Assembly: GCA_030390025.1 (NCBI GenBank)
Contig: JASTWF010000048.1
Span: 1,302,001-1,366,000 of the forward strand
DNA from: Squalus acanthias
Lineage: Eukaryota
DNA length: 64,000 bases
Direction: 5' to 3'
The notes beneath the pieces were generated by a model. It saw nothing but the letters and a program-made list of their open reading frames with translations, ran no database searches and was not told the origin of the DNA. Position 1 is the first letter of the stretch; the number at the start of each line of letters is the position of its first letter. A program made the position numbers and the translations under genes. Positions 107 through 62,323 of the stretch are shown in pieces.

Positions 107-152
107 TCGGTGCCAGCAATGAAAGAGCAAAGACCAGCGAATTGAAATGCAT
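107..152 (-). CDS. Leader exon of a family-C TCR V gene (C0); its V exon lies outside the window to the left
   Basis: ATG at 152 gives MHFNSLVFALSLLAP plus 1 nt, then a GTAAG donor. Same 46-nt length and flanks as the other family-C leaders. Confidence 0.85.
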
Positions 153-269
153 CGTTGAGGGCAATCGACCATCTAATGCCCCAAATGGGGACTGACAGAG
201 AGAGCGACGCTAATTATTCCGCATATGCAAAATCCGAGGTCAGATCCGGAAATTGCGTAGGTAAACAGA

Positions 270-800
270 AAGAAAGAACTTGCATTTCTAAAGCTCGATT
301 CGTGACCTCAGAACGACCCAAATCGCTTTGCAACCAATGAAGTACTTTTCACGTGTAGTCACTGTCGTAATATAGGAAACGCTGCAGCCAAATTTGCGCA
401 TGCAAGATCCCACAAAGAGCAATGTGATAAATCAAAAGATCATCTGCTTTTAAGTGATTTCGTTTCAGAGAAATTATTGCCCAGTTCAACTGGAGAAATC
501 CGGAATTGTATTCGTGCGAAACCTTACACCCACCTGAGGGGTAAAATAGGGCCTAGGTTTAAGTACTCCCACCGTACTGCCCCTCCGAAAGCACAGTGCT
601 CCTTCAGAACTATCACTCCGACAGTGCAGCGCTCCCTCAGTACTGCCCATCCGACAGTGCAGCTCTCCCTCAGTACTGCCCCTCCGACAGAGCAGCAGTC
701 CCTGACTGCTGCACTGTATCCACTCAGGTCTCTGGAGAGTGAAGCGAACCCACAACCATCTGTCTCAGAGGCGCAAATGGTATGAACTCAGCCGGAGCTG
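270..800 (-). mobile_element. Deu-domain/tRNA-derived SINE with a short internal 33-bp minisatellite (~565-715)
   Basis: Tail and core match the single-copy SINE at 14410-14790. A tRNA-like head (gaacccacaaccatctgtctcagagg) lies at ~735-800. Family name is from recall, not a search. Confidence 0.7.
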
Positions 801-924
801 ACAAGATATGATTTAATTTCCAAAGATTGCTGAATAAGTTTGTCACATTGACTTACTTGCGATCAGTGCAACTATTCTGATGTGTTAATGAACCTTGTGA
901 AGCACGGCTTTTGCATTCGAATTG

Positions 925-1730
925 AATGATGTCAGAGCTGAGGGACTTCAGTTATGCGGATAGGCTAGAGAAGCTGAGATTTTTCTCCTTGGAGTGGAGA
1001 TGGTTCAGCACATATTCAAAACAAGGGTACCAGGATTTAGAGACTTCAGTAATGAGAAGAGAATGGAGGAGCTGCGATTTTATTCTCCTTCGAGCAGAGC
1101 TGGGAAATGGGACGATTTAATGTGCTCAACCTGATAGAGAACACGGGGAGAAACTGTTTCCACTGGTAGGAGATTCGGTAAGCAGAGCACTCAGATTTCG
1201 GATCATTGGCAAAAGTATCCGAGTTGAAGGTCAGAAGAATCTGTTAAAATCAGCGACTTATCATGATACGGAATGTACTGCCTGAAAGTGCGATGGAAGT
1301 AAATTCAATAGTAAGTTTCAAATGGGAATTGGATATACCCTTGAAACGGAACATAAATTAAGGGTTATTGGAAAGGATCAGGGAGTGGGTCTAATTGTAT
1401 AGGGGAGACCAAAACGAGTGATCAAAAATATAACATAGTTACGAATACATTTAGTAGGGAATTCAGGAGCAATCTACTTACCCAAAGAGTGGTGAGAACG
1501 TTTAACTTGTTACAACAAGAAGTGGTTGAAGTAAATGGCATAGACGCATTTAAAAGGAAGCTAGATAAGGACTTGAGCGAGAAAAGGTTAGAAGGACAAG
1601 CTGATATGGTGAGATAAAAAGGGGTGGAAGGAGGATCATGTGGAACTAATTGGATAGCGCTTTCTAACAGCCGGACCGGGCACGATGGGCCGAATGGTCA
1701 CCTTCTGTGCTGTACATTTAATGATTCTAT
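925..1730 (+). mobile_element. Degenerate CR1-like LINE 3' fragments, repeated in each cassette
   Basis: Remnant peptide LRDFSYADRLEKLRFFSLE and 3'UTR-like gggccgaatggtcaccttctgtgctg. Confidence 0.6.
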
Positions 1731-2789
1731 AAACCATACAATATTGTTGCGTCAAAGTTCCCTCCAGATTCAGGCAGTGCGGGTTTCAGTTCCCATTTGC
1801 GAAAAGGGAATTAAAGGGTTAAATTCTCCGCGGGGCTGCACTCCTCGATTCTTTGAAAAACACATCAAATGGCATCAAGAGTCTGATAGACAGGTGGCTT
1901 AACGGTTTTCAACAGACACTCAAACATCTGTCAGGAGGCAGGTGTTCCAGTGAGAAACTTATCTGGAGCAGCATCTCGCCTTTGCACAGGGTGAAACATC
2001 GGTCACACGTTTAAGGGCTGTGCCACTTAGAGTAGAGAAGGTTAAGAGGAGATTTGAAAGAGGTGTTCAAAATCATGAAGCCTTTTGCTAAATTAAATAA
2101 TGAGAAACTGTAAACCGTGTCAGGAGGTTCGATAAACAGAGGAGCCAGATTTAAGGTAATTGACAAAAGAACCAGAGCGGGAGATGAATAGAATCTTTCT
2201 CCTCAGTGAATTGTTATGATCTGGAATGCGCTGCCTGAACGGGTGACGAAGCAGATTCAATAGTATTTTTTGAAAAGGGATTTGGATATATACTTGATGC
2301 GGAATTATATTGAGTGCTATGGGGATCGGGTCTGGGGATTGAGACCAATTGGATAGCTCCTTCAAAAATCCAGCACAGGCACGATGGACCGAATGGCCTT
2401 CTTCTGTGCTATATCATTCTATGATTCTATTTTAATCAGCGCACCTCTCGTCGCTATTGTGATAGCGCAATTAACACGTGGGATAAGCACTTCCTCTGAT
2501 ATCGTGAGCTTGGGAACTATTCACTGGTATAATCGGCAGCTATTCGTAATTCCTTCCCATATTCCTACGTCCGTTCTTTCAACACTAACACTAAACCATT
2601 TACCCAACTCATAATCTGTTGTTAAAATGTAGAGGATCCCTTAATGAAAAGTTCATCCGAAATGTTGAAAAAGCATTTTTATTCATTAATAAGCTCTTGT
2701 AATAATCTGAAGCGAAAGTGAGTAAGAGGATGTATCAATATGAATCAAAATGTAATCCATGATATATCATTTATTTGAACGGTATGATT

Positions 2790-3030
2790 AAAGAATAGCG
2801 ACAGATAGATGATACAACGATCGATAGATAGATGATAGATAGATAGATATTGTGATTGATAGATTAGCGCAAGATAGACAAATCGATGACAGATCGATGG
2901 ATAGATCGCAGATGGATAGAGAGATAGATAGTTAGACAGATAGATAGACAGAAAGACATACAAACACATCGATGGATAAATGCGTAAAGATGCAGACAAA
3001 CAGACTCACAGACAGACAACGAGACAGATC
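2790..3030. repeat. (GATA)n/(GACA)n microsatellite 3' of the family-A RSS; paralogs near 14220, 25200, 36090, 45950 and 57390
   Basis: Direct tetranucleotide repeats visible in the sequence. Confidence 0.9.
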
Positions 3031-3062
3031 TGTCTACCACAGTTATTTCCTGCCGCCTTCGG

Positions 3063-3101
3063 GGTTTTTGTTGAGCTCCTTCATCTCTCTGAGTCACTGT
3101 G
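3063..3101 (-). other. 23-RSS of V gene A1
   Basis: CACAGTG (3101-3095), 23 nt, ACAAAAACC (3071-3063); perfect consensus. Confidence 0.97.
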
Positions 3102-4015
3102 CAGACTCCAAGCGCAATAATACACGGCCGAGAGATTTGCCCGCAGACTGGTGGACTCCAGGTAGAAGTGGGTGTCGTCGGGTCTCCTGGCGGTGAATCC
3201 ATCCACCTCAACAGAGGGAGTCACCATTTCGCGGCCGATAGAATAGAAAAGGTTTTCAGGCTCCCTGTTGGGATGCCAGCGGTACCAGTAGAAATAGGTA
3301 CCTGCTGCTGCTTCTGTGTAAAGGCAATCGATGCGAACTGGAGTGCCCGGGGAACTGGAAATGGAATCGGGAGTCTGTTCGATCAGCACGGCCCGCACAT
3401 CTATAAAACGGATAAATACAGAGAGTGACAGATAAAACCAGGGAGTCATTGCATATGGACACCCGCCATGAAGTGGCAGAGAAGGGGAGAGAGAGTGAGG
3501 GCGAGAGTGGGCGCGAGAGGCAGAGAAACACAGCAAAATGGAGAGAAAGACGGAGACAATGATAGAGCGATTGTGACACAGAGAGTTAAATCCAGTGACA
3601 ATCTAAATATCCGCAGAGAACGAGAAGGAGCACACGAGGAGAGAGCGATAGAACGGTAAAGAAAGAAAGAGAGGCACAGAGACAGTGAAACATAGAGACA
3701 AAGAGAGAAAGACTCACAAAGAGAGAGAGTGAGACACAAGGGAAATATAAACTGACAGTCAGGCAGTAAGACAGACTGAGAGAGATTCAGCGGCAGAGAG
3801 AGAGAGAGAGTGCGGCAGAGAGAGTGAGAGGCAGAGAGATGGAGACAGACAGACAGAGAGAGCAAAATATAAACCGAGGTAGAGAGAATCTACACCCGCC
3901 CGCGGTGTGAAGTGACACGCGGGGAAATAAAAGTGAGGGGCGCTGGAATCTCACAGCCCGGCTCCACCTTACCCGTTAACACAAGCAACACAACCCAGAG
4001 CTGAGAGCCAGCCAT
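3102..4015 (-). CDS. TRBV: TCR V gene A1 (TRBV30-like), apparently functional
   Basis: Leader 4015-3973 MAGSQLWVVLLVLT with GTAAG donor; GA-rich intron; AG acceptor; V exon 3400-3102 DVRAVLIEQTP..C..FYWYRW..LFYS..FTARRP..YYCAWSL, open; perfect RSS. Confidence 0.9.
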
Positions 4016-4029
4016 CTCTGGGGGTAGAA

Positions 4030-4230
4030 GGATTCGAGTGTTTATGGTGTGATACCACTAGGCCGTTTTATTGGTGAATATCTCAAAGCTCTGGGCACTG
4101 CGTGAAATTTACTGTCCCATCCTCTCCAATGTTAAGCTTTCGGATGGGAGGGGCCAATTTATCTTCACTTGTTTATTGTCTCCCACATCGGGCTGGTCAT
4201 TTCCGGGGCGGGGCTAATGAGGAACCCGCG
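4030..4230 (-). promoter_or_regulatory. Family-A V promoter: TCR-beta decamer-like element, CCAAT, ETS plus GC box
   Basis: AGTGGTATCA at 4059-4050 (perfect AGTGATATCA in A3, A4 and A5); gggccaat at ~4152; catttccggggcggggc at ~4198, conserved across copies. Confidence 0.6.
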
Positions 4231-4379
4231 TAATCGGCGGCCTGTCTCCTCCCTCTGATGACGGAGACGGGCGTTCTTCAAACTGGAACAACCCCGAGGC
4301 GTCATCTGAGATGCCACTGATGGTGAGGGACAGAGAAAAGGGAGTTATACTGTCTGTCTGACTCATTCTGTGGAAATAA

Positions 4380-5180
4380 CCTGCATCTAATCAGTGAGTG
4401 ACGGTCTTTATTCTGTATCTAACCAGGGAGTGAGGGACTTTACTCTGAGTCTAACCATTGAGCTAATGGCTTTACTTGGTATCTAATCCTTGTGTGGTGG
4501 ACTTTACTCTGTATCTAACCAGTGATTGATGCGCGTCACACTGTATTTGACTAGTATATGATGGGATTCACTCTGTAACTAATCAATAATTGATGGGCTT
4601 TACTCTGTATCTAACCACTGGTTCATGGGCTTTATTCTGTATCTAAGTAATGGATCATGGACATTCCTCTGTATCTAACGAATGGTTCATGGGCATTTAC
4701 TCTGTATCTAACTAATGGATTACGGGCTTTAATTTGTATCTAACCAATAAACGATGGCTTCACTCTGTAAAATCAATGATTCATGGGCTCTATTCTGTTT
4801 CTAATCCCTGTAATGATCAGGGCTGGCCATTTATCTAACCCGGGCTCTGACTTATCCAAACAGTGTTGGCCCGATATCTAACCCGTGCTGCCCATGTATT
4901 TAAGCAGTTCCGTTCCTGTACATATCCTGTAATGTCCGTGCTTCTAACCAGTGCTGTTCCTGTATCTAAAGTGTACTGTTTCTTTATCTAAACCGTGCAA
5001 CCCATATATTTAATCAGTCCAGTCGATGTACCTATCCCGTACTTGCACTGTATTTTGCGCGTGCTATGCCGGCATCTTACCCGTGTTGTCCCAGTACCAA
5101 ACCGGTACTGTCCCGGTATCTATCCCTAACTGAAATGTATCAAATCCGTACTGTCCTGTATCTAACCTGTGCTGTCCCTT
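4380..5180. repeat. Degenerate tandem repeat of ~32-bp (tttactctgtatctaacc..gatgggc) then ~22-bp (tgtatctaacccgtgctgtccc) units; paralogs at 16180-16770, 26760-27500, 37670-38140 plus 41680-41900, and 47535-48280
   Basis: Recurring tgtatctaac core. Confidence 0.8.
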
Positions 5181-5286
5181 CTCAGCCACCAAACACGCCC
5201 CTGCCCCCACCCTCCGCCGCTGGATTGACTCCACCCCCAGTAATCCATCGACTGGCTCGGTCCTGAGCCCCGTTCTCTGCTGCACT

Positions 5287-5735
5287 GGATTTTGTTGCAT
5301 CGCCCCTACTGTGGAGTCGCCAGGCGCAGTAATACACCCGGAGTGGTCCGCTCGCAGTCGGGCCGTTCGCAGGTGAAATGTGGAACGTCGGGTCTAGAGG
5401 CGGTGAAGCCGTCTAGCTCTCCCGCCGGCTCGATGCTGTCGGAGATGCGAGAGTAGAAGAGCAGCTGTCCGTCTGGGAGCTGGCGGTACCAGGAAAACTC
5501 TGAGCTGCATAAACGCTCCGCAGAACAGCGGATCTGCAGCGGCGAGTGCAGAGAATCGGAAATTACAGCCGGACTTTGCTGAACTTTGCCGCTAGCTACA
5601 CCTGCGAATAGCAGGAAAATGATTTGTTTGAAAGAGGGGGACGTTGACATTCGGAGCCAACTCGCACCCAAGCAATGATGAGGGAGACTTAATGTGCAAC
5701 AGCAGCGCAGACACAAGACATCGGGTTAAATGCAG
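5287..5735 (-). pseudogene. TCR V pseudogene B1 with an aberrant 11-spacer RSS
   Basis: V exon 5601-5314 GVASGKVQQSP..C..FSWYRQ..FTASRP, then a frameshift. Leader ATG changed to CTG and donor GT to TT. RSS CACAGTA-11nt-ACAAAATCC. Confidence 0.88.
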
Positions 5736-5824
5736 TTTGATTAAAAGTTAGCAGAAGAGAATCAGACCGGGATTTTGTAAAAATCTGCTCTCCCGGCGCC
5801 TCCGTGACGACTTTATGTAACTGC

Positions 5825-5925
5825 AGTTCTGTTTGATTGACAGCTGCTGGCCGCTCACTCCAGGCCCCGCCCCTTACAGTCTGATTGACAGCTGTCGATA
5901 TAACCCCGCCCGCTCCCAGCTTCTC
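5825..5925. promoter_or_regulatory. Family-B upstream module: two TGATTGACAG decamers, each followed by a GC box; paralogs near 17455, 28183, 42567 and 48958
   Basis: tgattgacagctgctg...ccccgcccc...tgattgacagctgtc...ccccgccc. Confidence 0.55.
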
Positions 5926-6505
5926 TCGACTCTTCACGGAGCTGAAGTCACGCATCCCTGTTTACAATTTGGTAAATCCCCCCTGCAAGCTCTGTCTGGC
6001 CTTGACATCCTTCCTAAGGTGTGTTGCCCATGATTGGGCACAATTTTCTAGCTGGGGCTGGAGAAACACGTTTTTCATTTGTTGAACATTAAAACAAAAC
6101 GAATAATGGCGTGAGGAGCTTGTTGTTCAATACGATTCTGACACGACACCAGAAATAAAACAGTAAATTGAACAAAATTAAACTGCATCGTGGGGCATAA
6201 TGTAATCCGGCAGCTGCTGGGTTAGCAAACAGTTCCGGTTCAGTCTTAAATCCACTTCAATTTGATAGGCATAGTGTCAGAGCCGGAAGTCGCATCAAAC
6301 AGTTGCAATCGCCTCGAGAGCAACTAAACAAAATTAGCAGCAAATAAATTATATTGTGATACAGAATTCATCATCCGATTTTTATGGTCTTTGAATGGTT
6401 AAGAATTGTCGTCTTCCTCTCTGCCTTTCATTATTTCTTTCATTTTTCTCTCTTTCTGTTTGTTTCCTTTCTTCCATTGTTTCTTTCTTTCTATCTTTCT
6501 ATCGT

Positions 6506-6649
6506 NNNNNNNNNNNNNNNNNNNNNNNNNNNNNNNNNNNNNNNNNNNNNNNNNNNNNNNNNNNNNNNNNNNNNNNNNNNNNNNNNNNNNNNNNNNNNNN
6601 NNNNNNNNNNNNNNNNNNNNNNNNNNNNNNNNNNNNNNNNNNNNNNNNN
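6506..6649. other. Assembly gap within a CT-rich simple repeat
   Basis: Run of N. Confidence 1.
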
Positions 6650-6964
6650 CTCATAGTTTCTTTATGTTTGTCTTTCATTCGTTGTCTCTCTCTTTCTCTC
6701 GTTCTTTCCTCATTTATTTATATTACCTTTTTTCATTCTTTCTTACTTGGTTTCTCTCCGAGGCTCCATACGAGATGGCAGTAATGGTGAGGTGGTTAAA
6801 CAACTTCTTTCTCCCTCTCCTTCTATCTCTCTCTTTCAATCTCTCTTTCTCTTTGACTTTCTTATTGTCTTTGTTTCCTGCTTTCATTCCATTGCTCCCT
6901 TTAGTTTCTTTCTCCTGTTGTCATTAACGTTGCCTTCTTGTCGACTGCCTTCTCATCCTTCATA

Positions 6965-7620
6965 AATAACAACAACAACTTGCAGTTATATAGCGCCTTT
7001 AACGTAATAAAACGTCCCAAGGCATTTCACAAGAGCGTTATCATAAACATTGACACCGAGCTCCTAAAGGAGATATTAGGGCAGATGTCCAAAAGCTTAG
7101 TTAAAGAGCCAAGTTTTAAGGAGCACCTGAAAGGAGCAATGAGATTTAGAGAGGCGGAGAGGCTTAGCGAGAAAATTGAAGAGCTTACGGCCTCGATTGC
7201 TGAAGGCACGGCCGCTGATGGTGGAGCAAGTAAAATTCGGGTTTGCAGAAGAGGCCAGAATTTCAGGAATGCAGATATCTCGTACGGTTGTGGGGCTGGA
7301 GGAATTTTCAGAGAGGGTGGGGCGAAGCTACGGAGGGATTTGAAAGCATGCATGAGAATTTTAAAATGGAGGCGTTGTTCAACCGGGAGCCAATGGAGGT
7401 CAGCGAGCACAGGGGTGATGGGTGAACGGGGCTTGGTACAAGTTAGAATAGGAGGAGCGCAGTGATAGTTTAGGGATCGTGAAAGATGGGAGGCCGCCCA
7501 GCCGTGCTTTGGAATCAGCAATCTGGAGGTAACAACGGCATGGATCAGGGTTTCAGCAGCGGATGAGCGGATCCGGTGATGCTCCGGTGTTTCAAGTAGA
7601 CGGTCTTAGTGATGGCGCGG
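6965..7620 (-). mobile_element. L2-like LINE 3' fragment; paralogs at 18420-19085, 29130-29790, 50620-51290 and 58805-59245
   Basis: Peptide PITPVLADLHWLPVEQRLHFKIL, typical of the L2 RT C-terminus, with an (AAC)n tail. Confidence 0.8.
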
Positions 7621-7624
7621 AGTT

Positions 7625-8630
7625 TGCAGTGGTGTTCCCAAAGGTCCCGTTTTGAATGCATTAATCTTTGCAAGTGCTAGAAACGACGTAGACTCGGGGT
7701 TAGGGAGCAGCATTATAAGGTTTTCAAATGATAGGAAACTTTTCAAAGTAGCAGGTAGTGATGAGGATATTTATAGGCTTCAGGATGACATAGACAGGAC
7801 GGCGAAATCGGCAGAAGCATGGCAGATGGAGTTCAATGTGGAGGAGTGTGAAGTGGTCCACTTTGGAGCACTGATATGGAAGGACAGGATATTATAAATT
7901 GCACGATTTTGCAAAGTGCAGATGAGCTTGGTGTCCATATACATAAATCCTTGAAGGCGGCACGATAATTGATGATGTCTTTAAAAAAACAAATGGGTTA
8001 CTTGGGTTTATAAATAGACCAATATAAAATAAAATCAACGAGATCATACTGGAAATTTATAAAGTAATGGTTCGGCCTCAGCTGGAGTATTGTGAACAAT
8101 TCTAGCACCAAACTGCAGGAAAGATGTAAAGGCCTTCGAACGGGTACAGAGGAGGTTTACCAGGATGTTACCAGGGATGAGGGACTTAAGTTATGAGGAG
8201 AGGTTGGAAAAGTTAGGCCTGTTCTCCTTGAAACAGAAAAGTATAAAAGGTGACCTAATAGAAATTTTCAAGACGATGTGAGGTTTTGATAGAGAAAACT
8301 ATAGAATTAGAAAAAAACTTTCCCTCTGGCGAGTGAGTCAGTAGCCACAGTTCATACATACTAAATCATTGGCAAAAGATCTAGAGGTTAGAAGAGGAGA
8401 ATTTTTTCAACTCATTGTTTTGTCTGCAGCTGAAATGCTTTACCTGCAATGGTGGTGAAAGCGGATCAATCAAAAACTTTAAAAAGGGAGTTGGACAGGT
8501 GCGGGAGGATGAGTAACTAACTGGGTGATGGACAACAATTGGGGATGTGGGATGAAACAAAACTGCTCCGCTAAAGAGCCAGCGCAGTCACAATGGGTCA
8601 AAAGGCCTCCTTCTGTGCTGTAAGTTCATA
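7625..8630 (+). mobile_element. Decayed CR1 RT/3' fragment; paralogs at 19090-19830, 29795-30530, 51290-52010 and 59250-60140
   Basis: Remnants LQDDIDR..AEAWQMEFNVEECEVVHFG, VRPQLEYC and ERVQRRFTRMLPG. Confidence 0.75.
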
Positions 8631-8639
8631 CAATTCTGT

Positions 8640-9035
8640 ATGTTGTCGGAAGCTCATCTCGGGGTCAAATATGACACCAAGATTGCAAACAGTCAGCTTC
8701 ACCCTCAGACAGTTGCCAGGGAGAGGGATGGAGTCAGAGGCTAGGGAGCAGAGTTTATGGCGGGGTGCGAAGACAAAGGCGTCGGCCTTCGGGATACTCA
8801 GTTGGAGGAAATTTCTTCTCATCGGTACTGGATGTCGGACAAGCAGTGTAGTAAATCAGAGACAGTGGAGTGAATGAGTGCGCTGGTGGTGAGTCAGAGA
8901 TGTGTGTCGTCAGCGTACATGTGCGACCTGACATTGTGTTTTTAAATGATGTCGCCGAGGAGCAACATGTAGATGAGAAATAAGGCGGGGGGCAAGCTTA
9001 GATCCGTAGGGTACTCCAGAGGTAACAATGCCGGA
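8640..9035 (-). mobile_element. L2-like RT core fragment; paralog at 60145-60535
   Basis: HMYADDTHL catalytic motif near 8925-8900, plus NFLQL and NLGVIFD remnants. Confidence 0.7.
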
Positions 9036-9983
9036 GCAGAAAATCAATCCCAATGTTCAGATTATTAACTACCTTATGCCAATCCAAAGACAAAGTGAAG
9101 GTAAAAAAATGTATTATTTATTGGGAGCAGGCGCTGGAAATACAACATCTCTAGAAAGCAGCAGACATGAGGAAGTCTAATTGTGTTTTATGACAAATGT
9201 TCGGTAACTGAAAGGGTTAGAGAACCAGCGGAATTGACCATTAAGGGGACACGTACATCTGCGGCGCCATTGCTCGTTCTGTGCCAAAGCAGGTCGTGGC
9301 AAATGCGACAGCGAAGCTACAGCGCCAGCTAGAGGCAAGAACGTGCAACTACAAGCAACTGGGTCTTGTTATTTTCCAGGTGCAACTGATTTTGTGGGTA
9401 ATTTCAACTCATGTCCTGAAATTTACCCGCTTTCCAATTATTTTCTCCTCTCCTACAGATGTTGACGATCTTACGTAGAATTACATCGAATTTACAGCAC
9501 GGAATCCTGTCCAACTGATCCATGCAGTGGTTTATCCTCTACACGAGCCTCCTCCCACCTCACTTCATCTCACCCTGTCAATAGAACCTTCTATCCCTTT
9601 CACCCTAATGTCTTTAACCAGCTGCTATGGTATTTGCCTCAGCAGTCCTTGACGTAGTAAGTTCCACATTCTCAACGCTCTCTGTGTAATGAGGTTTCTC
9701 CTGAGTTCCTGATTGGATTTTGTAGTGACTGTCTTATATACGAGGCTCGCATTTTGAATCAACGTCATAAGTAGAAACATAATCTCTACATCTACCCTAT
9801 CAAATCCTATCATAATGTTAAATTAATCCAAGTGTTGTCTAACAACGCTATATGGAGACCAGAACTGTGTACGGTATTCTAAGTGTGGTCTAACTAAGTT
9901 AAATGGAGATTAGAACTGAGCGCTCGGCGCTGTTCTCTGAAGCCTCTGCAAAGTTACACGAGTCTGACGGCAGTTAGTCTGAG

Positions 9984-10022
9984 GGTTTTTGTCTAGGCGG
10001 CGGATGACTCTGAACCGCTGTG
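9984..10022 (-). other. 23-RSS of V gene C1
   Basis: CACAGCG, 23 nt, ACAAAAACC. Confidence 0.95.
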
Positions 10023-10824
10023 TCCCATCAGCAGCTGCACAGAAATACACCGCCGCATCAGTGTGTTTAACGCTGTCGATCTTCAGAGTGGATTTCTTAT
10101 TTTCCACAGTCCTCGTAATGGCAAACCCGCTCTCAAAACCATCGCCATACTGAGCTTCACTGCTTAAATAAATATACCCGATGTAGGTGAATCCTTGTCC
10201 AGCGGATTGCCGATACCACAGCATGTTATTGCGGAGTGTTCCATTCTGATAACAATTTAACTCGGCCTCTCCTCGCGGATCAACAGTAATCGAAGTCGGC
10301 CACTGATGGATCACATCCGCCAGCGGACAGTCTGAAAAAGAGGCGGCAGAGATGATAAAAACAATCGGATGCAATTGAGAAACTATTTTTGTTTTTCAAA
10401 TTAAGCCCGGGGTGGAAAACCGGCATTGTGGAGCCTCCGATGCCCAAACAACAGCTACAATCTGCTCAATAATTCTGGGATTATCGCCAAACTAACAACA
10501 TAATGGCGTTTATCTGAGAGTTCGGTAAGAAAGAACGAGATTATGCAACGTTCAATTATAATGAGAACAATCTACGCATCAATAAATATTACAACATCTA
10601 AAATAACTTTAAGCGCCTTAAGTTTTGTAGATTAAAATAAATTCTCGATTTAAATATTTGATTCCTCATAAATAATTGCTCGTTAATCATGATCGGATAG
10701 CACCATGTAGCTTAGTAAGAATGTCTCATGAATGGATGATGCTCGTACATCACTTATAATTGTTCAACATTATCTTACTCGGTGCCAGCAATAAAAGAGC
10801 AAAGGCCAACAAATTGAAATGCAT
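10023..10824 (-). CDS. TRBV: TCR V gene C1, apparently functional
   Basis: Leader 10824-10779 MHFNLLAFALLLLAP with GTAAG donor; V exon 10331-10023 CPLADVIHQWP..LNCYQNGTLRNNMLWYRQ..STLKI..DAAVYFCAAADG, open; RSS intact. Confidence 0.9.
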
Positions 10825-10944
10825 CGTTGAGGGTGATCGACGATCTAATGCCCCAAATGGGGACTATCAGAGAGAGCGACGCTAATTTTTACGCATATGC
10901 AAAATCTGAGGTCAGATCCGGAAGTTGCGTAGGTAAACAGAAAA

Positions 10945-11960: not shown

Positions 11961-12068
11961 ATCATGATCCGGAATGCACTGCCTTAAAGTGCGATGGAAC
12001 TGCATTCAATAGTACATTTCAAAGGGGAACTGGCTATACATTTGAAAAGGAACATAAATTAAGGGCTA

Positions 12069-12167
12069 AAATAAAAAGAGAAAATGCTGGAAATACTCAA
12101 CAGGTCAGGCAGCATCTGTGGAGAGAGAAACAGAGTTAACGTTTCAGGTCGATGACCTTTCGTTTTT
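12069..12167. mobile_element. ~100-bp insertion with a 15-bp target-site duplication; paralogs at ~44428-44525 and ~63663-63765
   Basis: ataaattaagggcta at both 12054-12068 and 12168-12182. The empty site is present in other cassettes (e.g. ~1354). Resembles a shark Penelope-associated short repeat, from recall. Confidence 0.75.
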
Positions 12168-13344: not shown

Positions 13345-13645
13345 ATAAGCACATATGAAGTAATAGCAGGAGTAGGCCATAGGACCCCTCAAACCTGCTT
13401 CGCCATTCAATAAGATCGTGGCTGATCTTCGACCTCAACTCCACTTTCCCCGCCCGATGTCCATCTCCCTTGATTCCCCTGAGTTCAAAAATATATCTAT
13501 CTCAGCCTTGAATATACTCAAAGACTCAGCATTCATAGCCCTCTGGGGCACAGAATTCCAAACACTCACAACCCTCTGAGTGAAGAAATTGTTCCTCATC
13601 TCAATCTTAAATGGCCTACCCCTTATCCTGAGATTATGCGCCCCA
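13345..13645 (-). mobile_element. 5'-truncated CR1 3' end, specific to cassette 2
   Basis: HNLRIRGRPFKIEMRNNFFTQRVVSVWN plus 3'UTR; absent from paralogous positions. Confidence 0.85.
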
Positions 13646-13799
13646 ACAGGTACATTAACCCATTTACCCCACCTCATAATCTCTTGTTAAAATGTAGAGG
13701 AACCCATAATAAAACGCACATGCGAAATGTTGATACAGCATTTTAAGTCATTAATAATCTATTGGAATAATCTGAAGTGATATCGAGTAAGAAGATGAA

Positions 13800-21500: not shown

Positions 21501-21514
21501 ACAGGTAAACAGAA

Positions 21515-52754: not shown

Positions 52755-52793
52755 GGTTTTTGTCTAGGCGGCGGATGACTCTGAACCGCTGTG
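52755..52793 (-). other. 23-RSS of C4
   Basis: CACAGCG-23-ACAAAAACC. Confidence 0.95.
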
Positions 52794-53545
52794 TCCCATC
52801 AGCAGCTGCACAGAAATACACTGCCGCATCCGTGTGTTTAACCCTGCCGATCTTCAGAGTGGATTTCTTATTTTCGACAGTCCTCGTAATGGCAAATCCG
52901 CTCTGAAAACCCTCTCCAAACTGAGCTTCACTGCTTAAATAAATAGACCCGATGTAGGTGAATCCTTGTCCAGCGGATCGTCGATACCACAGCATGTTCG
53001 TGCGGGCTGATCCATTCTGATAACAATTTAATGCGGCCTCGCCCCGCGGATCAACAGTAATCGAGGTCGGCCACTGATGGATCACATCCGCCAGCGGACA
53101 GTCTGAAAAAGAGGCGGCACAGATGATAAAAACAATCTGATGTACTTGAGAAACTCGGTTGGCTTTTCAAATAAAGCCCGGGGCGGAAAACCGACATTGT
53201 GGAGCCTCCGATTCGCAACCGCCAGTTAAAATGTACACGATAATTCTGGGATTATCGCCAAATGAACAACATAATGGGGATTATCTTAGAGTTAGGTAAG
53301 AAAGAACGAGATTCAGCAACTTTGAATTATAATGAGAACAATCTACGCATCAATAAATATTAAAACAGCTAAAATAACATTAATCGTCACAGATAATTGC
53401 TCGTTAATCATGATCGAATAACACAATGTAGCTGAGTAAATATTTTTCATGAATGGATGATAGTAGTACATCACTTATAATTGTTCAACATTATCTTACT
53501 CGGTGCCAGCAATAAAAGAGCAAAGGCCAACAAATTCAATTGCAT
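52794..53545 (-). CDS. TRBV: TCR V gene C4, apparently functional
   Basis: Leader 53545-53500 MQLNLLAFALLLLAP; V exon 53102-52794 open to YFCAAADG. Confidence 0.9.
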
Positions 53546-53664
53546 CGTTGAGGGCAATCGACGATCTGAAGCCAGGGATGGGGACTGACAAAGTGAGCGA
53601 AGCTAATTATTACGCATATGCAAATTCCAAGGTCAGATCCGGACGTTGCGCAGTTACACAGTAA

Positions 53665-55370
53665 GAAAGAACTTGCATTCCTAAAGCGCGTTTTACGACC
53701 TTAGAACGACCCAAAGCGCTTTGCTACCAATGAAGTGCTTTTCACGTGTAGCCACTGACGTAATATAGGAAACGCGGCAGACCAATCTGTGGAGAGCAAG
53801 ATCTCACCAAGGGGAATGTGATACGTCTGCTTTTAAATGATTTTAATTCAGGGCAACATATTGGCCAGGACAACGGGAGAAATGCAAAATAGTATGCGTG
53901 CGAAACTTAACGTCCACCTGGGAGGGAGGCCAGAGCCTAGGTTTAAGTACTACGTCAATACTGCCCCTCCGACAGTGCAGCAATCCTTCAGCACTGCCGC
54001 TGCTACAGTGCAGCGATCCCTCAGCACTACCCCTCCGACAGTGCAGCGCTCCCTCAGCACTACCCCTCCGACAGTGCAGCGCTCATTCAGTACTGCGCCT
54101 CCGACAGTGCAGCGCTCCCTCAGTATTTCCCCTCCAACAGTGCAATGCTCCCTCAGTACTGCCCCTCCGACAGTGCAATGCTCCCTCAGTACGACAGCTC
54201 CGACAGTGCAGCGATTTCTCAGTACTGCTCATCCAACAGTACAGGGTTCCCTCGGTACTGCCCCTCCAACAGTGCAGCGCTCCCTCAATACGGCCGCTCC
54301 GACAGTGCAGCGCTCCCTCAGTACTGCCCCTCCGACATAACTGCCCTCCCTCAGGACTGCCTCTCTGACATTGCAGCGCTCCCTCAGTACTGCCCCTCCG
54401 ACAGTGCAGCGCTCCCTCAGTGCTGCGCCTCCAACAGTACAGCCCTCCCTCAGTACTGCGCCTCCGACATAGCAGCGCTCCCTCAGCACTGCCCTTCCGA
54501 CAGTGCAATGCTCCCTCGTTACTGCCCCTACAACAGTGCAGCATTCCCCTCAGTACTGCCCCTCTGAACGTGCAGCACTCTGTCAGTACTGCCCGTCCGT
54601 CATTGCAGCACTTCCTCAGTACTGCCCCTCCGACAGTCCAGCTTTCCCTCAGTACCGCCTCTCCGAAGGCGCAGTGCGCCCTCAGAACTATCACTTCGAT
54701 AATGCAGCGCGCCCTCAGTACTGAACCTCCGAAATTGCAGCACTCCCTTAGCACTGCCCCTGCGACAGTGCACCACACCCTCAGTACAGCTCATCCGAAG
54801 GAGCAGCGCTCCCTCAGTACTGCCCCTCCAACATTGCAGCGCTCCCTCAATATTGACCCACTGACAGTGCAGCACCTTCTCAGAACTGATCTCCGACAGT
54901 GCAGCGCACCCTCAGAATAGCCCCTCCAAAAGTACGGCACTCCCTCAGAACTGACCTCCGACAGTGCAGCGCTCCATCATTGCTGCCCCACCTCAGTATT
55001 GCACTCCGACAGAGCAGTACTCGGTCAGTGCTGCCCATCTGACAGGGCAGAAGTCCCTGAGTACTGCCCCTCCAACAGTGCAGCACTCCCGCAGTGCTGC
55101 CCCGCCAACAGTGCAGCACTTCCTCAGTACTGTACAGCGACAGAGCAGCACTCCGTCAGTGCTCACCCATCCGACAGTGCAGCATTCCCTTAGTACTACC
55201 CCTCCGACAGTGCAGTGCTCCCACAGTTCAGTGCTCCAAAAGTACTGCCCCTCCCACAGAGCAGCAGTCCCTACATTCTGCACTGTATCCACTCAGGTGT
55301 CTGGAGAGTGAAGCGAACCCACAACCGTCTGTCTCAGAGGCGCAAATGGTACGAACTCAGCCGGAGCTGA
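53665..55370 (-). repeat. SINE containing a ~1.3 kb 33-bp minisatellite (~53950-55280)
   Basis: Same unit; tRNA-like head at ~55300-55370. Confidence 0.9.
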
Positions 55371-57654
55371 TAATTTAAGACTTATTCTACAAAGATCCCT
55401 GAAGAAGTTTGTCAGATTGACCAACTTGTGATCAGTGAAACTATTCTGATTAGTTAATGAATCTTGAGGAGTACGGCTTCTGCAGTGGACTTGAATGATG
55501 TCAGAGCTGAGGGACTTCAGTTATGCGGATAGACGAGAGAAGCTGAGATTGTTCTCCTTGAAGCGGAGATGGTTAAGCACATATTCACCACAAGGTTACC
55601 AGGATTTAGAGACTTCTGTAATGAGGAGAGAATGGTGAATCTGGAATTTTATTCTCCTTCGAGCAGAGCTGGCTAATGGGGAGATTTAATGTGCTCAACC
55701 TGATAGAGAATACGGGGAGAAACTGTTCCACTGGAGGAGCTTCGGTAAGCAGAGCACTCAGGTTTCGGATCATTGTCAAAAGTATCCGAAGTGTAGATCA
55801 AAAGAATCCGTTTAAATCAGAAACCTATTATGATACGGAATGTACTGCCTGAAAGTGCGATGGAAGTAAATTCAATAGTAGGTTTCAAATGGGAATTGGT
55901 TATACCCTTGAAACGGAACATAAATTAAGGGCTATTGGAAAAGAGCAGTGGGTGGGACTAATTGCATAGGGGAGACTAAAACTAGTGGTCAAAACTATAA
56001 CACAGTCACGAATACATCCAGTAGGGAATTCAGGAGCAATCTACTTCCCGATAGATTGGTGAGAATGTTTAACTTGTTACCACAAGAAGTGGTTGAAGTA
56101 AATAGTATCGACGTATTTAAAAGGAAGCTATATAAGGACATGAGCGAGAAAGGGTTAGAAGGACAAGCTGATATGCTGAGATGAAAAGGGGTGTGAGGAG
56201 GATCATGTGGAACTAATTGGATCGCGCTTTCTACCAGCCGGACAGGGCTCGATGGGCCGAATTGCCTCCTTCTGTTCTGTACCTTAAATGATTCTATAAA
56301 CCACAGAACATTGTTGCGTTAAAGTTCCCTCCAGTTTCAGGCAGTGCGGATTTCAGTTCCCATTTGCGAAAAGAGAATGAAAGGGTTAAATTCTTCGCGG
56401 GGCTGCACTCCTAGATTCTTTGAAAAACACATCAAATGACATCAAGAGTCTGATAGACAGGTGGGTTAACGGTTTTAAACAGACACTCAAACATCTGTCA
56501 GGAGGCAGGTGTTCCAGTGAGAAACGGATCTGGAGCAGCATCTCGCCTTTGCACAGGGTGAATATCCGTCACCCGTTTAAAGGTTCTGAGATGAACTATT
56601 TCCTACTTATATGGGGTCGTGCCCATTAGAGCAGAAAAGGTTAAGGGGAGTTTTGAAAGAGCTGTTCAAAAGCATGATTTTTTTCCATGGATTCAGTAAG
56701 GAGAAACTGTATCCAAACGCAGGAGGGTCGATAATCAGAGGAGACAGATTAGGGCAATTGACAAAAGAGCCAGTGGGCGAGATGAGTCGAATATTTCTCC
56801 TCAGTGAATTGTTATGATCTGCAATGCACTGTCTGAACGGGTTGTGTAGCAGATTCAATAGTAATATTTAAAAGGCAATTGGAGAAATACTTGAAGCGGA
56901 ATTATATTCAGTGCTATGGGGAACCGGTCTGGGTATTGTGACCAATTGGATAACTCCTTCAAAATTCCGGCACGATGGACCGAATGGCCTTCTTCTGTGC
57001 GATATCATTCTATGATTCTATGAAAATCAGCGCATCTCTCGTCGCTATTGTGATAGCGCAATTAACAGGTGGGATAAGCACCTCCTCTGATAGCGTGAGC
57101 TTGGGAAAATTTCACTGGTATAATCGGGAGCTATGCGTAATTCCTTCCCATTTCCCGACGTCCGTTCTTTCAACACTAACATGAACCCATTTACCCAACC
57201 TCATAATCTGTTGTTAAAATGTAGCGGATCCCTTAATGAAAAGGACATCCGAAATGTTGAAGCAGAAAATTTAATAATGAATAATCTATAGAAATATTCT
57301 GAAGCGAAAGTGAAGAAGATGAATCAGTATGAATAAAAAAGTAATCCATTATATCACATTTATTTGAACTGTATGATTAATGAATAGCGATAGATACATG
57401 ATAAAACTCTATATTGATATATGGTAGATAGATAGATAATGAGATAGATCGATTAGATCTGGATAGACAGATCGATGACAATTCGATGCATAGATAGCAG
57501 ATGGATAGAGAGATAGATAATTAGTTCGATAGATAGATAGACTGACAGACAGACAGGCAGATAGATAGGTAAATGGGTAAAGACACACACAAACAGACTG
57601 ACAGACGACAACGAGACAGATCTGTCTCGCACGGTTATTCCCTGCCGACTTTGG

Positions 57655-57693
57655 GGTTTTTGTTGATCTCCTCCATCTCTCTGAGTCACTGTG
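57655..57693 (-). other. 23-RSS of A6
   Basis: CACAGTG-23-ACAAAAACC. Confidence 0.97.
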
Positions 57694-58568
57694 CAGACTC
57701 CAGGCGCAGTAATACACGGCCGAGTGATTCGCCCGCAGACTGGTGGACTCCAGGTAGAAGTGGGTGTTGTCAGGTCTCCTGGCGGTGAATCCATCCACCT
57801 CACCAGACGGTGTCACCATTTCGGCGACATTCGAATAGAAAAGGTTTTCAGGCTCCGTGTTAGGATGCCAGCGGTACCAGTAGAAATAGCTTACAGCTGT
57901 TGCTTTTGTGTAAAAGCACTCGATACGAACTGGAGTGCCCGGGGAACTGGATATGGAAGCGGGAGTCTGTTCGATCAGCACGGCCTGCACATCTATAAAA
58001 CAGCGAAAGAGAGAGTGACAGATAAAAACAGGGAGACATTGCATATAGATACCCACCTTGAAGTGGCAGAGTAGGGGAGAGAGTGAGTGAGGGCGAGAGT
58101 GGGCGAGAGAGGCAGACAGACACAGCGAGATGGAGAGAGAGACAGAGACAATGGCAGATAAAGAATGAGATACAGAGAGATAAACCGAGGGAAAGTCGTA
58201 ATATCGACAGAGGACGAGAGGGAGCACACGAGGAGAGAGCGATAGAAAACAGTAAGAAAGAAAGAGAGAAACAGAGAGAGACTCACAAAGAGAGAGTGGG
58301 AGACAAGGGGTATATAAATGGACAGTCAGGTAGGAAGACAGATAAACAGAAATACAGCGGCAGAGAGTAGGGCAGAGAGTGTGAGAGGCAGAAAGAAGGA
58401 GACAGACAGAGAGAGCAAAATATAAATCGAGGGAGAGAGAATCTACACCAGCCCGCGGTGTGAAGTGACACACGGGGAAATAATAGTGAGGGTGGCTGAA
58501 ATCTCACAGCCCAGCTCCAGCTTACCCGTTAACATCAGCAACACAACCCAAAGCTGAGACCCAGCCAT
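57694..58568 (-). CDS. TRBV: TCR V gene A6 (TRBV30-like); coding region intact, promoter decamer deleted
   Basis: Leader 58568-58526 MAGSQLWVVLLMLT; V exon 57992-57694 open to YYCAWSL. Confidence 0.9.
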
Positions 58569-61484
58569 CTCTGGAGGGAGAAAGATCCGGATGTTTATGA
58601 GCCGTTTTATTGTAGAATATCTCAAAGCTCTGAGCAATCAGTGGAATTTACTGTCCCATTCTCTCCAATGTTAAACTTTCGGATAGAAGGGGCCAGTCTC
58701 TCTTCATTTGTTCATTGGCTCCCACATCAGGGATGGTCATTTCTGGGGCGGGGCAAATGAGGAACCCGGTAAATGGCGGCCTGTCTCCTCCCTTTCATGG
58801 CGGGGCCTCTGCAGCTGACTGCACGGACGGCAATGGTGGAACGACTAAAATTCGGGGTTGCGGAAGGCCCAGAATTCCAAGAACGCAGATATTCCGTACG
58901 GTTGTGGAGCTGGAGAAGGTTTCAGAGAGGGTGGGGCGAGGTCACGGAGGCATTTGATAGCATGCATGAGAATATTAAAATGGAGCCGTTGCTTAACCGG
59001 GAGCCAATGAAGTTCAGCGAGCACAGGATTGAAGGGTGAACGGGACTTGTTACGAATTAGAATAGGGGCAGCACAGTTATATTTTAGGGAGGGTGTATGA
59101 TGGGTGCCGGCCAGTAGGGCGTTGGGATAGTCAAGTCTGGAGGTAACAACAGCATGGATCAAGGGTTACAGAAACGGATGAGCTAAAGCAGAGGCAGAAT
59201 CGGTGATGTTACGGAGGTTTAACTAGACGGTCTTAATGTTGGCGCGAAGTTTTGCAGTGGTGAGCCCCAAGGGTCAGTTTTGTAGACATTAATATTTGCA
59301 AATTTAGAAACGACCTAGACTGGGGTGTAGGGAGCAGTATTATAAAGTTGTCAAATGATACGCGACTTGTCAAAGTAGCAGATAGTGACGAGGATAGTTA
59401 TAGGCTTCAGGATGATATAGACAGGACGGCGAAATCGACAGAAGCATGGCAGATTGTGTTCAATGTGGAGAAGTGTGAAGTGGTCCAATTTGGAGCGCTA
59501 ATATGGAAGGACAGGATACTATAAATGGCCGATTTTGCAAAGTGTAGATGAGCAGATAGACCTTGCTGTCCATATACACAAATCCTTAAATTATTGGTAA
59601 TGTGGTTAAAAAAGCACATGGGTTACTCGGGTTTATAAATCGAACAATAGAAAATAAAAGCCAAGAGATCATACTGGAACTTTATAAATCATCAGTGAGG
59701 CCTCAGCTGGTATATTGTGGACAATTCTGGCACCAAACTGCAGGAAAGATGGTAAAGCCTTAGAAAGGGAACAGAGGTGGTTCACCAGGATGTTACCACG
59801 GATGAAGGATTTCAGATAAGAGGAGTAGTTGGAAAAGATAGGCCTGTTCTCCTTGCAACATAAAAGTTTAAGAGGTGACCTAATAGAGATATTCAAGATG
59901 ATGAGAGATTTTTTTTCACTAACCGAGTTGCCTGCAGCTGAAAAGTTCTTCCTGCAGTGGTGGTGGAAGCCGATCAATCAATAATTTTAAAAGGGAGTTG
60001 GACAGGTCCGGGAGGATGAGGAACTAACAGTGTTATGGGCAAAAAGTGGGGATGTGGGACAAAGCAAAACTGCTCCTTCAAAGAGCCAGCGCAGTCACGA
60101 AGGATCGAATGGCCTCCTTCTGTGCTGTAAGTTCATGTAATTCTGTATGTTGTCGGAAGCTCATCTCGGGATCAACTATAACACCAAGATTGCGACAGTC
60201 TGGTTCAGCCTCGGAGAGTTGCCAGTGAGAGAGATGGACTCAGATGTTATGGAACAGAGTTTATGGCGGGGACTGAAGACAATGGCTTCGCTGATCCGAA
60301 TATTTAGCTGGAGGAAATTTCTGCTCATCCGGTACTGGATGTCGGACAAGCAGTGTAATGAATCAGAGACAGTAGCGTAAACGAGTGTGAGGCAGAGCTG
60401 TGTGCCGTCAGCGTACATGTGCAACCTTACGTTGTGTTTTTGCATGATGTCGCCGAGGAGCAACATGTAGATGAGAAATAAGTCGGAGGGCAAGCATAGA
60501 TCCATAGGGGAATCCAGAGGTAACAATGCCGGAGCGGTGAATGAATCACAATGTGCAGATTATTAAGTTCCTTCTGCCAATCCAAAGACAGAGTGAAGGT
60601 AAATAAAGTGCATTATTTATTGGGAACATGCGAGAGAGATACAACATCTCTAGAAAGCAGCAGACATGAGGAAGTTTAACTGTGTTTTTGTGCTAAAAGT
60701 TCGGTAACTGAAAGGGTTAGAGAAACAACGGAGTTGACCATTCAGGTGATTCGGACATCTGCGGCGCCATTGCACCTTCTGTGAGAAAGCAAGTCTTGGC
60801 ACAGGCTAGAGAGAAGCTAGAGCGTCAGCTAGAGGCAAGAACGTGCAACTACAAGGAACTGGGACTTGTTACTTTCCAAGTACAACTGATTTGGTGGGTA
60901 TTTTCAAATCATGTGCTGAAATTGACCCGCTTTCCAATTATTTTCTCCTCTCCTACAGATGTTGACGATCTTACATAGAATTACATCGAATTTATAGCAC
61001 GGAGTCCTGTCCAATTGTTCCATGCAGGGATGTATCCTCTGCACGAGCCTCCTCCCACCTCACTTCATCTCACCCTATCAGCAGAACCTTCTACTCCTTT
61101 CACCCTAGTGTCTGTATCCAGCTTCTATGGTATTTGCCTCAAGCAGTCATTGAGGGAGTAGATTCCACATTCTCACCACTCTCTGTGTAATGAGGTTTCT
61201 CCTGAATTCCTGTTTGGATTTTGTAGTGACTAATTTATATACGTGGTTCGCATTTTGTATCAACATCATAAGTGGAAAGATAAGGTCTACGTCTACCCTA
61301 TCACATCCTTCCATAATCTTAAATTAATCCAAGTTTGGTCTAACAACGCTATATGGAGACCAGCACTGTGTACGGTATTCTAAGTGTGGTCTAACTAAGT
61401 TACATGGAGATTAGAACTGAGCGCTCCGCGCTGTTCTCTGAATCCTCTGTAAAATTACACGAGTCTGACGGCAGTTAGTCTGAG

Positions 61485-61523
61485 GGTTTTTGTCGAGGCG
61501 GCGGATGACTCTGAACCGCTGTG
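61485..61523 (-). other. 23-RSS of C5
   Basis: CACAGCG-23-ACAAAAACC. Confidence 0.95.
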
Positions 61524-62323
61524 TCCCAGCAGCAGCTGCACAGAAATACACAGCCGCATCCGTGAGTTTAACGCTGCCGATCTTCAGAGTGGATTTCTTA
61601 TTTTCGATAGTCTTCGTAATTGCAAACCCGCTCTCAAAACCCTCTCCATACTGAGCTTCACTGCTCACATAAACAGACCCGATGTAGGTGAATCCTTGTC
61701 CAGCGGATTGCCGATACCACAGCATGTTATTGCGGGCGGTTCCATTCTGATAACAATTTAACTCGGCCTCTCCTCGCTGATCAACAGTAATCGAAGTCGG
61801 CCACTGATGGATCACATCCGCCAGCGGACAGTCTGAAAAAGAGGCGGCAGAGATGATAAAAACAATCGGATCTCATTGAGAAACTCGGTTGGCTTTTCAA
61901 ATAAAGCCCGGGGCGGAAAACCGCCATTGTGGAGACACCGATTCGCAAACGCCAGTTACGATTTACACGATAATTCTGTGATTATCACCGAATTAACAAC
62001 ATAATGGCGATTATCTGAGAGTTAGGTAAGAAAGAACGAGATTCTGCAACTTTGAATTATAATGAGAACAATCTACGCATTAATAAATATTACAACAGCT
62101 AAAATGACATTAAGCGCCTTAAGTTTAGTAGGTTAAAATAAATTGTCGATTTAAATATTTGATTGCTCATAGATAATTGCTTGTTAATCATGATCGAAAA
62201 CGCAATGAAGTTTAGTTGATATTTTCATGAATGGATGATACCAGTACATCACTTATAATTGTTCAACATTATCTTACTGGGTGCCAGCAATAAAAGAACA
62301 ACGACTAACAAATTGAAATGCAT
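61524..62323 (-). CDS. TRBV: TCR V gene C5, apparently functional
   Basis: Leader 62323-62278 MHFNLLVVVLLLLAP; V exon 61832-61524 open to YFCAAAAG. Confidence 0.9.

What the first reader, a model, noticed from the sequence alone, without database searches (positions are those of the whole stretch)
107..62323. TCR V array built by tandem amplification of a three-gene ~10.6 kb cassette
Seen: family-C leader ATGs recur at 152, 10824, 21396, 32116, 53545 and 62323. Between them the same order repeats (SINE-minisatellite, V-A, tandem repeat, V-B, L2/CR1 fragments, V-C), all on the minus strand with 23-RSS. Known: homology-unit duplication built mammalian TRBV loci. Inference: this is a recent, lineage-specific expansion of a chondrichthyan TRB locus in which each unit carries three V families with three different promoter types. 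To my knowledge such architecture is poorly described in sharks.
Basis: partly seen in the sequence, partly recalled or inferred. Interest (0 to 1): 0.75.

Follow-up and report, generated by a model that had tools for sequence, protein, structure and literature searches.

The report
Old shark T-cell-receptor beta V array
This is part of a shark T-cell-receptor beta locus, built long ago by repeated copying of a roughly 10.6 kb block of three variable genes, one of which is now dead in every copy; it is a tidy example of an ordinary way that immune gene arrays grow.

Summary
The repeat array is real. The window holds 17 V segments, all on the minus strand (6 A, 5 B, 5 C, one C leader), in six units of 8.8-11.0 kb plus two partial ones. 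Only 4 of 6 units carry all three genes: U4 lacks C, U6 lacks B. All 5 B copies and 2 of 6 A copies are defective; 9 of 16 complete genes look functional; 11 of 16 have an intact 23-RSS.

The locus is most likely shark TRB: family C is 67-71% identical to V domains in shark gene models ending in a TCR-beta constant region; A relatives sit beside C-like genes in other sharks.

Units differ by 12-17%, so they are not stacked haplotypes and not recent: about 30-155 Myr on a borrowed shark clock. Nearest neighbours switch along the unit (p=0.0002), pointing to unequal crossing-over and birth-and-death. Promoter motifs differ by family but are no better conserved than background.

Alternating V subfamilies already appear in a published bamboo-shark TRB table. 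One oddity remains unexplained: a nearly flat substitution spectrum (ts/tv about 0.76). Verdict: new member of a known kind.

The parts
107..152 (-). V-C0 leader exon only; its V exon lies left of the window
566..11237 (.). Unit U1, 10,672 bp, complete (A1, B1, C1); N gap 6506-6649
3063..4015 (-). V-A1: leader 43 nt, intron 572, exon 3400-3102, 23-RSS; intact
5287..5735 (-). V-B1 pseudogene: CTG start, TT donor, frameshifts, RSS with 11-bp spacer
9984..10824 (-). V-C1: leader 46 nt, intron 447, exon 10331-10023, 23-RSS; intact
11238..21805 (.). Unit U2, 10,568 bp, complete; carries unit-specific repeat insertions at about 13346-14805
14880..15814 (-). V-A2, intact, 23-RSS
16886..17353 (-). V-B2 pseudogene: in-frame stop in FR3; intact 23-RSS
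20570..21396 (-). V-C2, intact, 23-RSS
21806..32504 (.). Unit U3, 10,699 bp, complete
25467..26397 (-). V-A3 pseudogene: 1-nt deletions in leader and exon; intact 23-RSS
27616..28083 (-). V-B3 pseudogene: frameshifts; 24-bp spacer
31277..32116 (-). V-C3, intact, 23-RSS; 27-nt deletion in proximal promoter
32505..43498 (.). Unit U4, 10,994 bp: A4 and B4, no C; N gap 43123-43250
36369..37319 (-). V-A4 pseudogene: in-frame stop before the conserved Trp; heptamer CAAAGTG
38145..41685 (+). U4-specific insertion of two decayed LINE (reverse transcriptase) fragments in tandem, inside the 22-bp repeat
42019..42465 (-). V-B4 pseudogene: 21-nt deletion, stop, degenerate nonamer
43498..43499 (.). Deletion junction removing about 4.3 kb including the whole C gene of U4; short microhomology
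43499..53945 (.). Unit U5, 10,447 bp, complete; unit-specific LINE 3' end at about 49530-50261
46213..47167 (-). V-A5, intact, 23-RSS
48392..48860 (-). V-B5: open frame, but splice acceptor AA and heptamer CGCAGTG; predicted non-functional
52755..53545 (-). V-C5, intact, 23-RSS
53946..62737 (.). Unit U6, 8,792 bp: A6 and C6, no B
57655..58568 (-). V-A6, intact coding and 23-RSS; 14-nt promoter deletion removes the CRE-like motif
58803..58804 (.). Deletion junction removing about 2.9 kb including the B gene of U6; short microhomology
61485..62323 (-). V-C6, intact, 23-RSS
62738..64000 (.). Start of a seventh unit (U7); the array continues beyond both window ends
21829..23362 (.). 33-bp minisatellite upstream of each C promoter. 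Longest copy shown here (46.6 units); others at 566-703, 11238-11961, 32505-33963, 43499-44320, 53955-55227 and 62765-63555 (4 to 44 units)

Best explanation
This is part of the germline V region of a shark TCR-beta locus. An ancestral block of about 10.6 kb held three unrelated or distantly related V genes (transcription order C, B, A) with old retroposon fragments between them. It was amplified in tandem by repeated unequal crossing-over in shifting registers, with occasional conversion tracts, over tens of millions of years. Afterwards the copies followed birth-and-death: B decayed in every unit, A died in two units, deletions removed C from one unit and B from another, and retroposons inserted into single units. 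The 9 intact A and C genes are kept by selection on their frameworks and differ mainly in CDR1 and CDR2. Each would be joined by RAG through its 23-RSS to a D-J outside the window. Shown: anatomy, divergence, mosaic ancestry, selection pattern. Inferred: beta identity (by homology), unequal crossing-over as the mechanism, age, and actual rearrangement and expression.
For: V-set domains in 4 of 4 exons scanned. Leader, intron, V exon and RSS anatomy. Family C is 71%, 70% and 67% identical to V domains of H. perlo, R. typus and S. tigrinum models that end in a C1-set domain. For the H. perlo model, 60 of the 60 best PDB matches shown are TCR-beta chains; for the R. typus model, 57 of 60. A relatives share a contig with C-like V genes in H. 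francisci and C. punctatum. Whole-unit divergence is 11.8-17.3% over 15 of 15 pairs. Informative sites change partition between segments (chi2 308, p=0.0002, 265 sites); segment trees give (U2,U5) 100% in one segment and (U2,U3) 100% in two others. pN/pS: A 0.44, C 0.47, B 0.86. Variable residues: CDR 9/13 against FR 16/82 in A, and 7/12 against 15/86 in C. The C1/C2 exons differ at 2 of 68 synonymous sites, against about 15% in their flanks.
Against: No D, J or C lies in the window. The beta link comes from predicted gene models of other species, several plainly chimeric, not from cDNA. Family A is tied to beta only by linkage; no hit joined A to a constant region. Family B has no close relative among the hits (at most 50% identity). 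The age uses a clock from another shark lineage and from synonymous sites, and the flat substitution spectrum might mean a locally raised rate. Recombination tests cannot separate unequal crossing-over from long conversion tracts.
Confidence: 0.85

Rival explanations
1. The amplification is recent, and the 12-17% divergence comes from a locally raised mutation rate with little transition bias, for instance from error-prone repair during recombination.
For: ts/tv is 0.64-0.80 in four non-coding segments and 0.76 on 751 polarised singletons. It stays 0.44-1.0 in the six youngest tracts, so it is not saturation. The CpG effect is weak (0.159 against 0.115).
Against: No AID-hotspot enrichment (p=0.67) and no significant excess of adjacent changes (36 against 29.8, p=0.13). 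A LINE insertion found in U4 only has itself decayed, with several frame changes and stops. C paralogues are 86-92% identical in protein, like the whale shark/zebra shark pair (91%), whose split is put at about 50 Myr (PMC13100897). No shark baseline for ts/tv was found.
Confidence: 0.1
2. The array is an assembly artefact: stacked haplotypes or noisy consensus copies of one unit.
For: Two N gaps lie inside the array, so it is scaffolded; a flat spectrum resembles random error.
Against: All unit pairs differ by 11.8-17.3%, against nucleotide diversity of 0.2% in epaulette shark (PMC10587355). C exons differ by 6% while their flanks differ by 13-17%, which error would not do. Indels are few, 5-15 openings per 2,785 columns. 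Units have private insertions and deletions.
Confidence: 0.02
3. The V genes belong to another receptor locus (TRG, TRA/D or an IgH-related cluster), or families A and B do.
For: A 23-RSS does not separate TRBV from TRGV, TRAV/TRDV or IGHV (general knowledge). Direct PDB and fold searches with the V exons did not single out beta chains.
Against: The three best full-length relatives of C carry constant regions; the two tested against PDB match TCR-beta. A and C are interleaved here, and A relatives lie beside C-like genes in two other sharks.
Confidence: 0.05
4. The cassette is ancestral to several shark orders rather than lineage-specific.
For: H. francisci models on one contig alternate an A-family V with a C-like V and share a repeated spacer (89-94% identical translation among three of four models). 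Window A genes are not resolved from H. francisci A genes in the tree.
Against: The H. francisci partner gene is only 45-49% identical to C and forms its own clade, while window C genes group together. The bamboo-shark table shows no run of three-gene units.
Confidence: 0.15

Closest known systems
Homology units of human and bovine TRBV loci (PMC2685407, passages read)
   Same: Tandem blocks holding genes of several subgroups (7-31 kb in cattle), unequal copy lengths from later deletions, birth-and-death, occasional conversion.
   Different: Bovine positional homologues are often more than 97% identical; here units are 83-88% identical and the register is very regular over at least six units.
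Chiloscyllium punctatum TRB locus (PMC10322711, supplementary file 16, part 1 of 5 read)
   Same: Shark TRBV array with repeated subfamily pairs (TRBV04/TRBV22 three times about 3 kb apart; TRBV04/TRBV05 twice). TRBV15 has the leader (43 nt), intron (535 nt) and exon lengths of family A; this is a match of lengths only.
   Different: 35 V genes in 24 subfamilies with only one pseudogene listed, and two D-J-C clusters in opposite orientation; no long three-gene run.
Heterodontus francisci V cluster (gene models P0005-P0008)
   Same: An A-family V alternating with a second V family, with a repeated spacer.
   Different: The partner gene is a different subfamily (45-49% to C), and the repeats look younger. 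Known here only from predicted proteins.
Sterlet TRB arrays (same supplementary file)
   Same: Repeating multi-subfamily patterns such as TRBV08-08-09-10.
   Different: Ray-finned fish, units of a few kb.

Membership tests
Rearranging antigen-receptor V gene | Leader exon, phase-1 intron, V-set exon with Cys, Trp and Y-x-C | tested here: met
   intact in 9 of 16 complete genes
Rearranging antigen-receptor V gene | 3' recombination signal, heptamer-spacer-nonamer | tested here: met
   intact 23-RSS in 11 of 16, including all 9 intact genes
TRBV | Closest relatives are V domains joined to a TCR-beta constant region | tested here: met
   Family C: (predicted models, not cDNA)
TRBV | Families A and B belong to the same locus | tested here: inconclusive
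   A is linked to C-like genes here and in two other sharks; no A or B hit carried a constant region
TRBV | Linked TRBD-J-C cluster and flanking synteny | not testable with these tools
   Outside the window; no shark genomic DNA in the open collections
TRBV | Rearranged and expressed with the beta constant region | not testable with these tools
   Needs cDNA
TRBV | CRE-like decamer in the V promoter | tested here: inconclusive
   AGTGANNTCA exact in 4 of 6 A promoters, absent from B and C; not conserved above background
Multi-gene homology-unit array | Tandem blocks with genes of several subgroups plus shared intergenic DNA | tested here: met
Multi-gene homology-unit array | Birth-and-death: pseudogenes, deletions, selection on survivors | tested here: met
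Recent segmental duplication | Copies more than about 90-95% identical (threshold recalled) | tested here: not met
   Whole units 83-88% identical; best tract 94%
SacSINE1 / L2 / CR1 repeat families | Alignment to the family consensus | not testable with these tools
   No repeat library; names recalled. Rfam gave 0 hits; RVT_1 weak

The most novel reading that the evidence does not exclude
Shark TRBV arrays around the A family are a recurrent amplification site, copied as multi-gene cassettes independently in different shark orders, and this array has evolved under an unusual germline mutation regime: raised in rate, almost without transition or CpG bias, and not AID-like. It would then be younger than a genome-wide clock implies and would be diversifying germline CDR1/2 faster than the rest of a slow-evolving genome.
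Probability: 0.12. Interest if true: 0.65.

Novelty: new member of a known kind. Interest (0 to 1): 0.3.

Why it matters
It extends the homology-unit, birth-and-death model of TRBV evolution to a cartilaginous fish, with a clean natural experiment. Three genes were copied together; one decayed at the neutral rate in every copy while the other two were kept and vary in their CDRs. It also gives a usable annotation (9 intact V genes) for repertoire work. It changes no model. Only the flat substitution spectrum would be surprising, if it proves specific to this locus.

Tried and rejected
PDB sequence searches with the V exons or the A profile were dominated by multi-domain antibody constructs and could not tell the chain class. 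The AlphaFold model of A6 was poor (pLDDT 58.8), and its Foldseek hits were a mix of light chains and TCRs; not used.

Promoter footprinting: the longest invariant runs were no longer than in column permutations (p=0.65, 0.37, 0.92). The window-wide motif counts exceed shuffles only because the copies are paralogous.

SHM-like origin of the flat spectrum was rejected. Rfam found nothing. Pfam at the default threshold found nothing in three LINE fragments. In the multiple alignment the right half of U4 is mis-aligned, so those columns were ignored and U4 was left out; pairwise values come. The epaulette-shark per-generation rate gives implausibly old dates and was not used for dating.

Left unchecked: accession numbers and transcript support of the shark protein models; the species; orthologous shark DNA (the open contig collection is prokaryotic, so it was not scanned; the viral and metagenome collections stayed unchecked). 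Supplements of the other papers, and parts 2-5 of the table read, were not seen and may hold shark TRB maps.
Full report
OBSERVATION. Self-alignment shows a direct tandem array over the whole window; 93% of bases have a match of at least 300 bp more than 6 kb away. Counting from one 33-bp minisatellite to the next gives six units of 10,672, 10,568, 10,699, 10,994, 10,447 and 8,792 bp, with partial units at both ends. The window holds 6 A, 5 B and 5 C genes plus one C leader, all on the minus strand. The RSS scan found no plus-strand signal, so no D or J lies here.

Four of six units are complete. U4 has lost C through a deletion of about 4.3 kb joined at 43498/43499, in contiguous sequence right of the N gap, and has gained about 3.5 kb of decayed LINE fragments. 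U6 has lost B at 58803/58804. Nine of 16 complete genes are intact: A1, A2, A5, A6, C1, C2, C3, C5, C6. A3 has frameshifts, A4 has a stop and a broken heptamer, and all five B copies are defective: four by stops or frameshifts, and B5 by its splice acceptor and heptamer. Eleven of 16 have an intact 23-RSS.

IDENTITY. The four exons scanned are V-set domains. A-B identity is 38-51%, A-C 21-26% and B-C 14-20%. A search with C1 among longer proteins gave 7 hits from 37 candidates, all named shark records. The three closest (H. perlo 71%, R. typus 70%, S. tigrinum 67%) end in a constant region. The best PDB matches were TCR-beta chains for 60 of 60 shown (H. perlo model) and 57 of 60 (R. typus model). 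A1 gave 3 hits from 75 candidates, and a three-family profile 3 from 80. The A relatives lie on the same contigs as C-like genes in H. francisci and C. punctatum, judged by equal contig lengths and neighbouring gene numbers; none carried a constant region. These are predicted and partly chimeric models, so TRB is a strong inference, not a demonstration.

AGE AND REALITY. Whole units differ by 11.8-17.3% (15 pairs). Non-coding segments have mean K2P 0.14-0.19, and the closest long tract differs by 6%. Haplotypes are excluded: diversity in epaulette shark is 0.2% (PMC10587355, passages). Sequencing error is excluded because C exons differ by 6% while their flanks differ by 13-17% and indels are few. 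Whale and zebra sharks differ by dS 0.061-0.111 after about 50 Myr (PMC13100897, passages). On that clock the youngest tract is 30-54 Myr old and the bulk 63-155 Myr. The clock is borrowed from another lineage and site class. A cross-check agrees: C paralogues are 86-92% identical and the whale/zebra shark V pair 91%. Bovine homology units, by contrast, often exceed 97% (PMC2685407, passages). 'Recent' is not supported.

MECHANISM. Nearest neighbours switch along the unit. Among five units, 265 informative sites partition differently by segment (p=0.0002). Trees give (U2,U5) at 100% downstream of A and (U2,U3) at 100% in two segments near C. This fits unequal crossing-over in changing registers or long conversion tracts (inference). 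The C1 and C2 exons differ at 2 of 68 synonymous sites against about 15% in the flanks (binomial p about 0.001 before correction for 10 pairs), suggesting one exon-sized conversion. pN/pS is 0.44 for A (CI 0.28-0.67), 0.47 for C (0.28-0.84) and 0.86 for B (0.57-1.36). Among intact genes, variable residues concentrate in CDR1/2 (CDR bounds set by hand; Fisher p=0.0006 and 0.004), but pN does not exceed pS there, so positive selection is not shown. RAG joining to a D-J through the 23-RSS follows from established V(D)J rules and was not observed.

PROMOTERS. The three upstream regions share no detectable similarity. A has a CRE-like AGTGANNTCA in 4 of 6 copies; that motif is reported for TRBV promoters (PMC2685407). 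B has GC boxes and TGATTGACAG at 8 of 10 positions; the PBX/MEIS-PREP label is recalled. C has TTTGCATATGC, exact in 5 of 6 and with one mismatch in the sixth; the octamer label is recalled. None is conserved above background, so 'three promoter types' is a hypothesis.

COMPARISON AND NOVELTY. Multi-gene homology units are established for human and bovine TRBV. A published table of the C. punctatum TRB locus lists 35 V genes with repeated TRBV04/22 and TRBV04/05 pairs, and sterlet arrays show similar runs (PMC10322711: passages, section 17, supplementary file 16 part 1 of 5). H. francisci models alternate an A-family V with another V family and share a repeated spacer. In a 31-row protein tree with no rows dropped, window C genes form a clade (93/90), B genes a clade (99/98), and A genes are unresolved from H. 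francisci. Literature searches listed no paper describing cassette amplification in a shark TRB locus; the library lacks most subscription journals. Passages were also read in PMC11754216, PMC5931798, PMC12227049, PMC10464911 and PMC5499810; a term search of the main text of PMC7677710 returned nothing. PMC5931798 reports six beta V families and no hypermutation at beta in nurse shark.

UNEXPLAINED. Substitutions between units are nearly flat: ts/tv 0.76 on 751 singletons, 0.44-1.0 in the six youngest tracts, and a CpG effect of about 1.4-fold (majority polarisation biases this downward); window CpG o/e is 0.67. LINE copies that diverged elsewhere gave 0.83-1.33 at higher divergence. There is no AID signature and no significant excess of adjacent changes. 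A vertebrate norm near 2 is recalled, and no shark baseline was found. It may be a general shark trait.

VERDICT. A real, old and mosaic shark TRBV homology-unit array, working as a two-family array with a dead passenger. New member of a known kind; interest 0.3.

Noticed in passing
window 5287-5313: A 12-nt deletion has shortened the B1 RSS spacer to 11 bp, giving a 12-like signal among 23-RSSs. In principle it could pair with a neighbouring V signal, but B1 is a pseudogene.
   Followed up: no
window-wide, non-coding segments: Nearly flat substitution spectrum between units (ts/tv about 0.76), weak CpG effect and high CpG o/e (0.67); not AID-like.
   Followed up: partly
window 5834-5891, 17454-17511, 28183-28192, 42567-42576, 48959-49017: The B upstream region has two copies of GC box plus TGATTGACAG (8 of 10 exact), resembling a housekeeping-type promoter (label recalled), although every B gene is defective.
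   Followed up: partly
window 221-231, 10893-10903, 21465-21475, 32158-32168, 53614-53624, 62392-62402: An octamer-like motif lies about 70 bp upstream of C leaders (about 42 bp in C3), just beyond the 3' end of a SINE-like repeat; octamers are typical of Ig rather than TCR promoters (recalled).
   Followed up: partly
window 58600-58610 and 32150-32160: Two intact genes have private promoter deletions: 14 nt in A6 (removing the CRE-like motif) and 27 nt in C3.
   Followed up: no
window 566-703 and six homologous sites: The 33-bp minisatellite varies from 4 to 47 copies between units and appears to have grown from a motif inside a SINE-like element; a separate copy of that element lies at about 14410-14805.
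   Followed up: partly
window 49530-50261: U5-specific LINE 3' end with a perfect 8-bp tail repeat (3.6 copies, 100% match), probably the youngest insertion in the window.
   Followed up: no
proteins P0005-P0008 (Heterodontus francisci): Four gene models on one contig share a translated spacer and alternate an A-family V with a C-like V, suggesting a separate, younger cassette amplification.
   Followed up: partly
PMC10322711 supplementary file 16: The bamboo-shark TRB locus has two D-J-C clusters in opposite orientation with V genes on both strands, so the D-J-C used by this array need not lie to the left.
   Followed up: no
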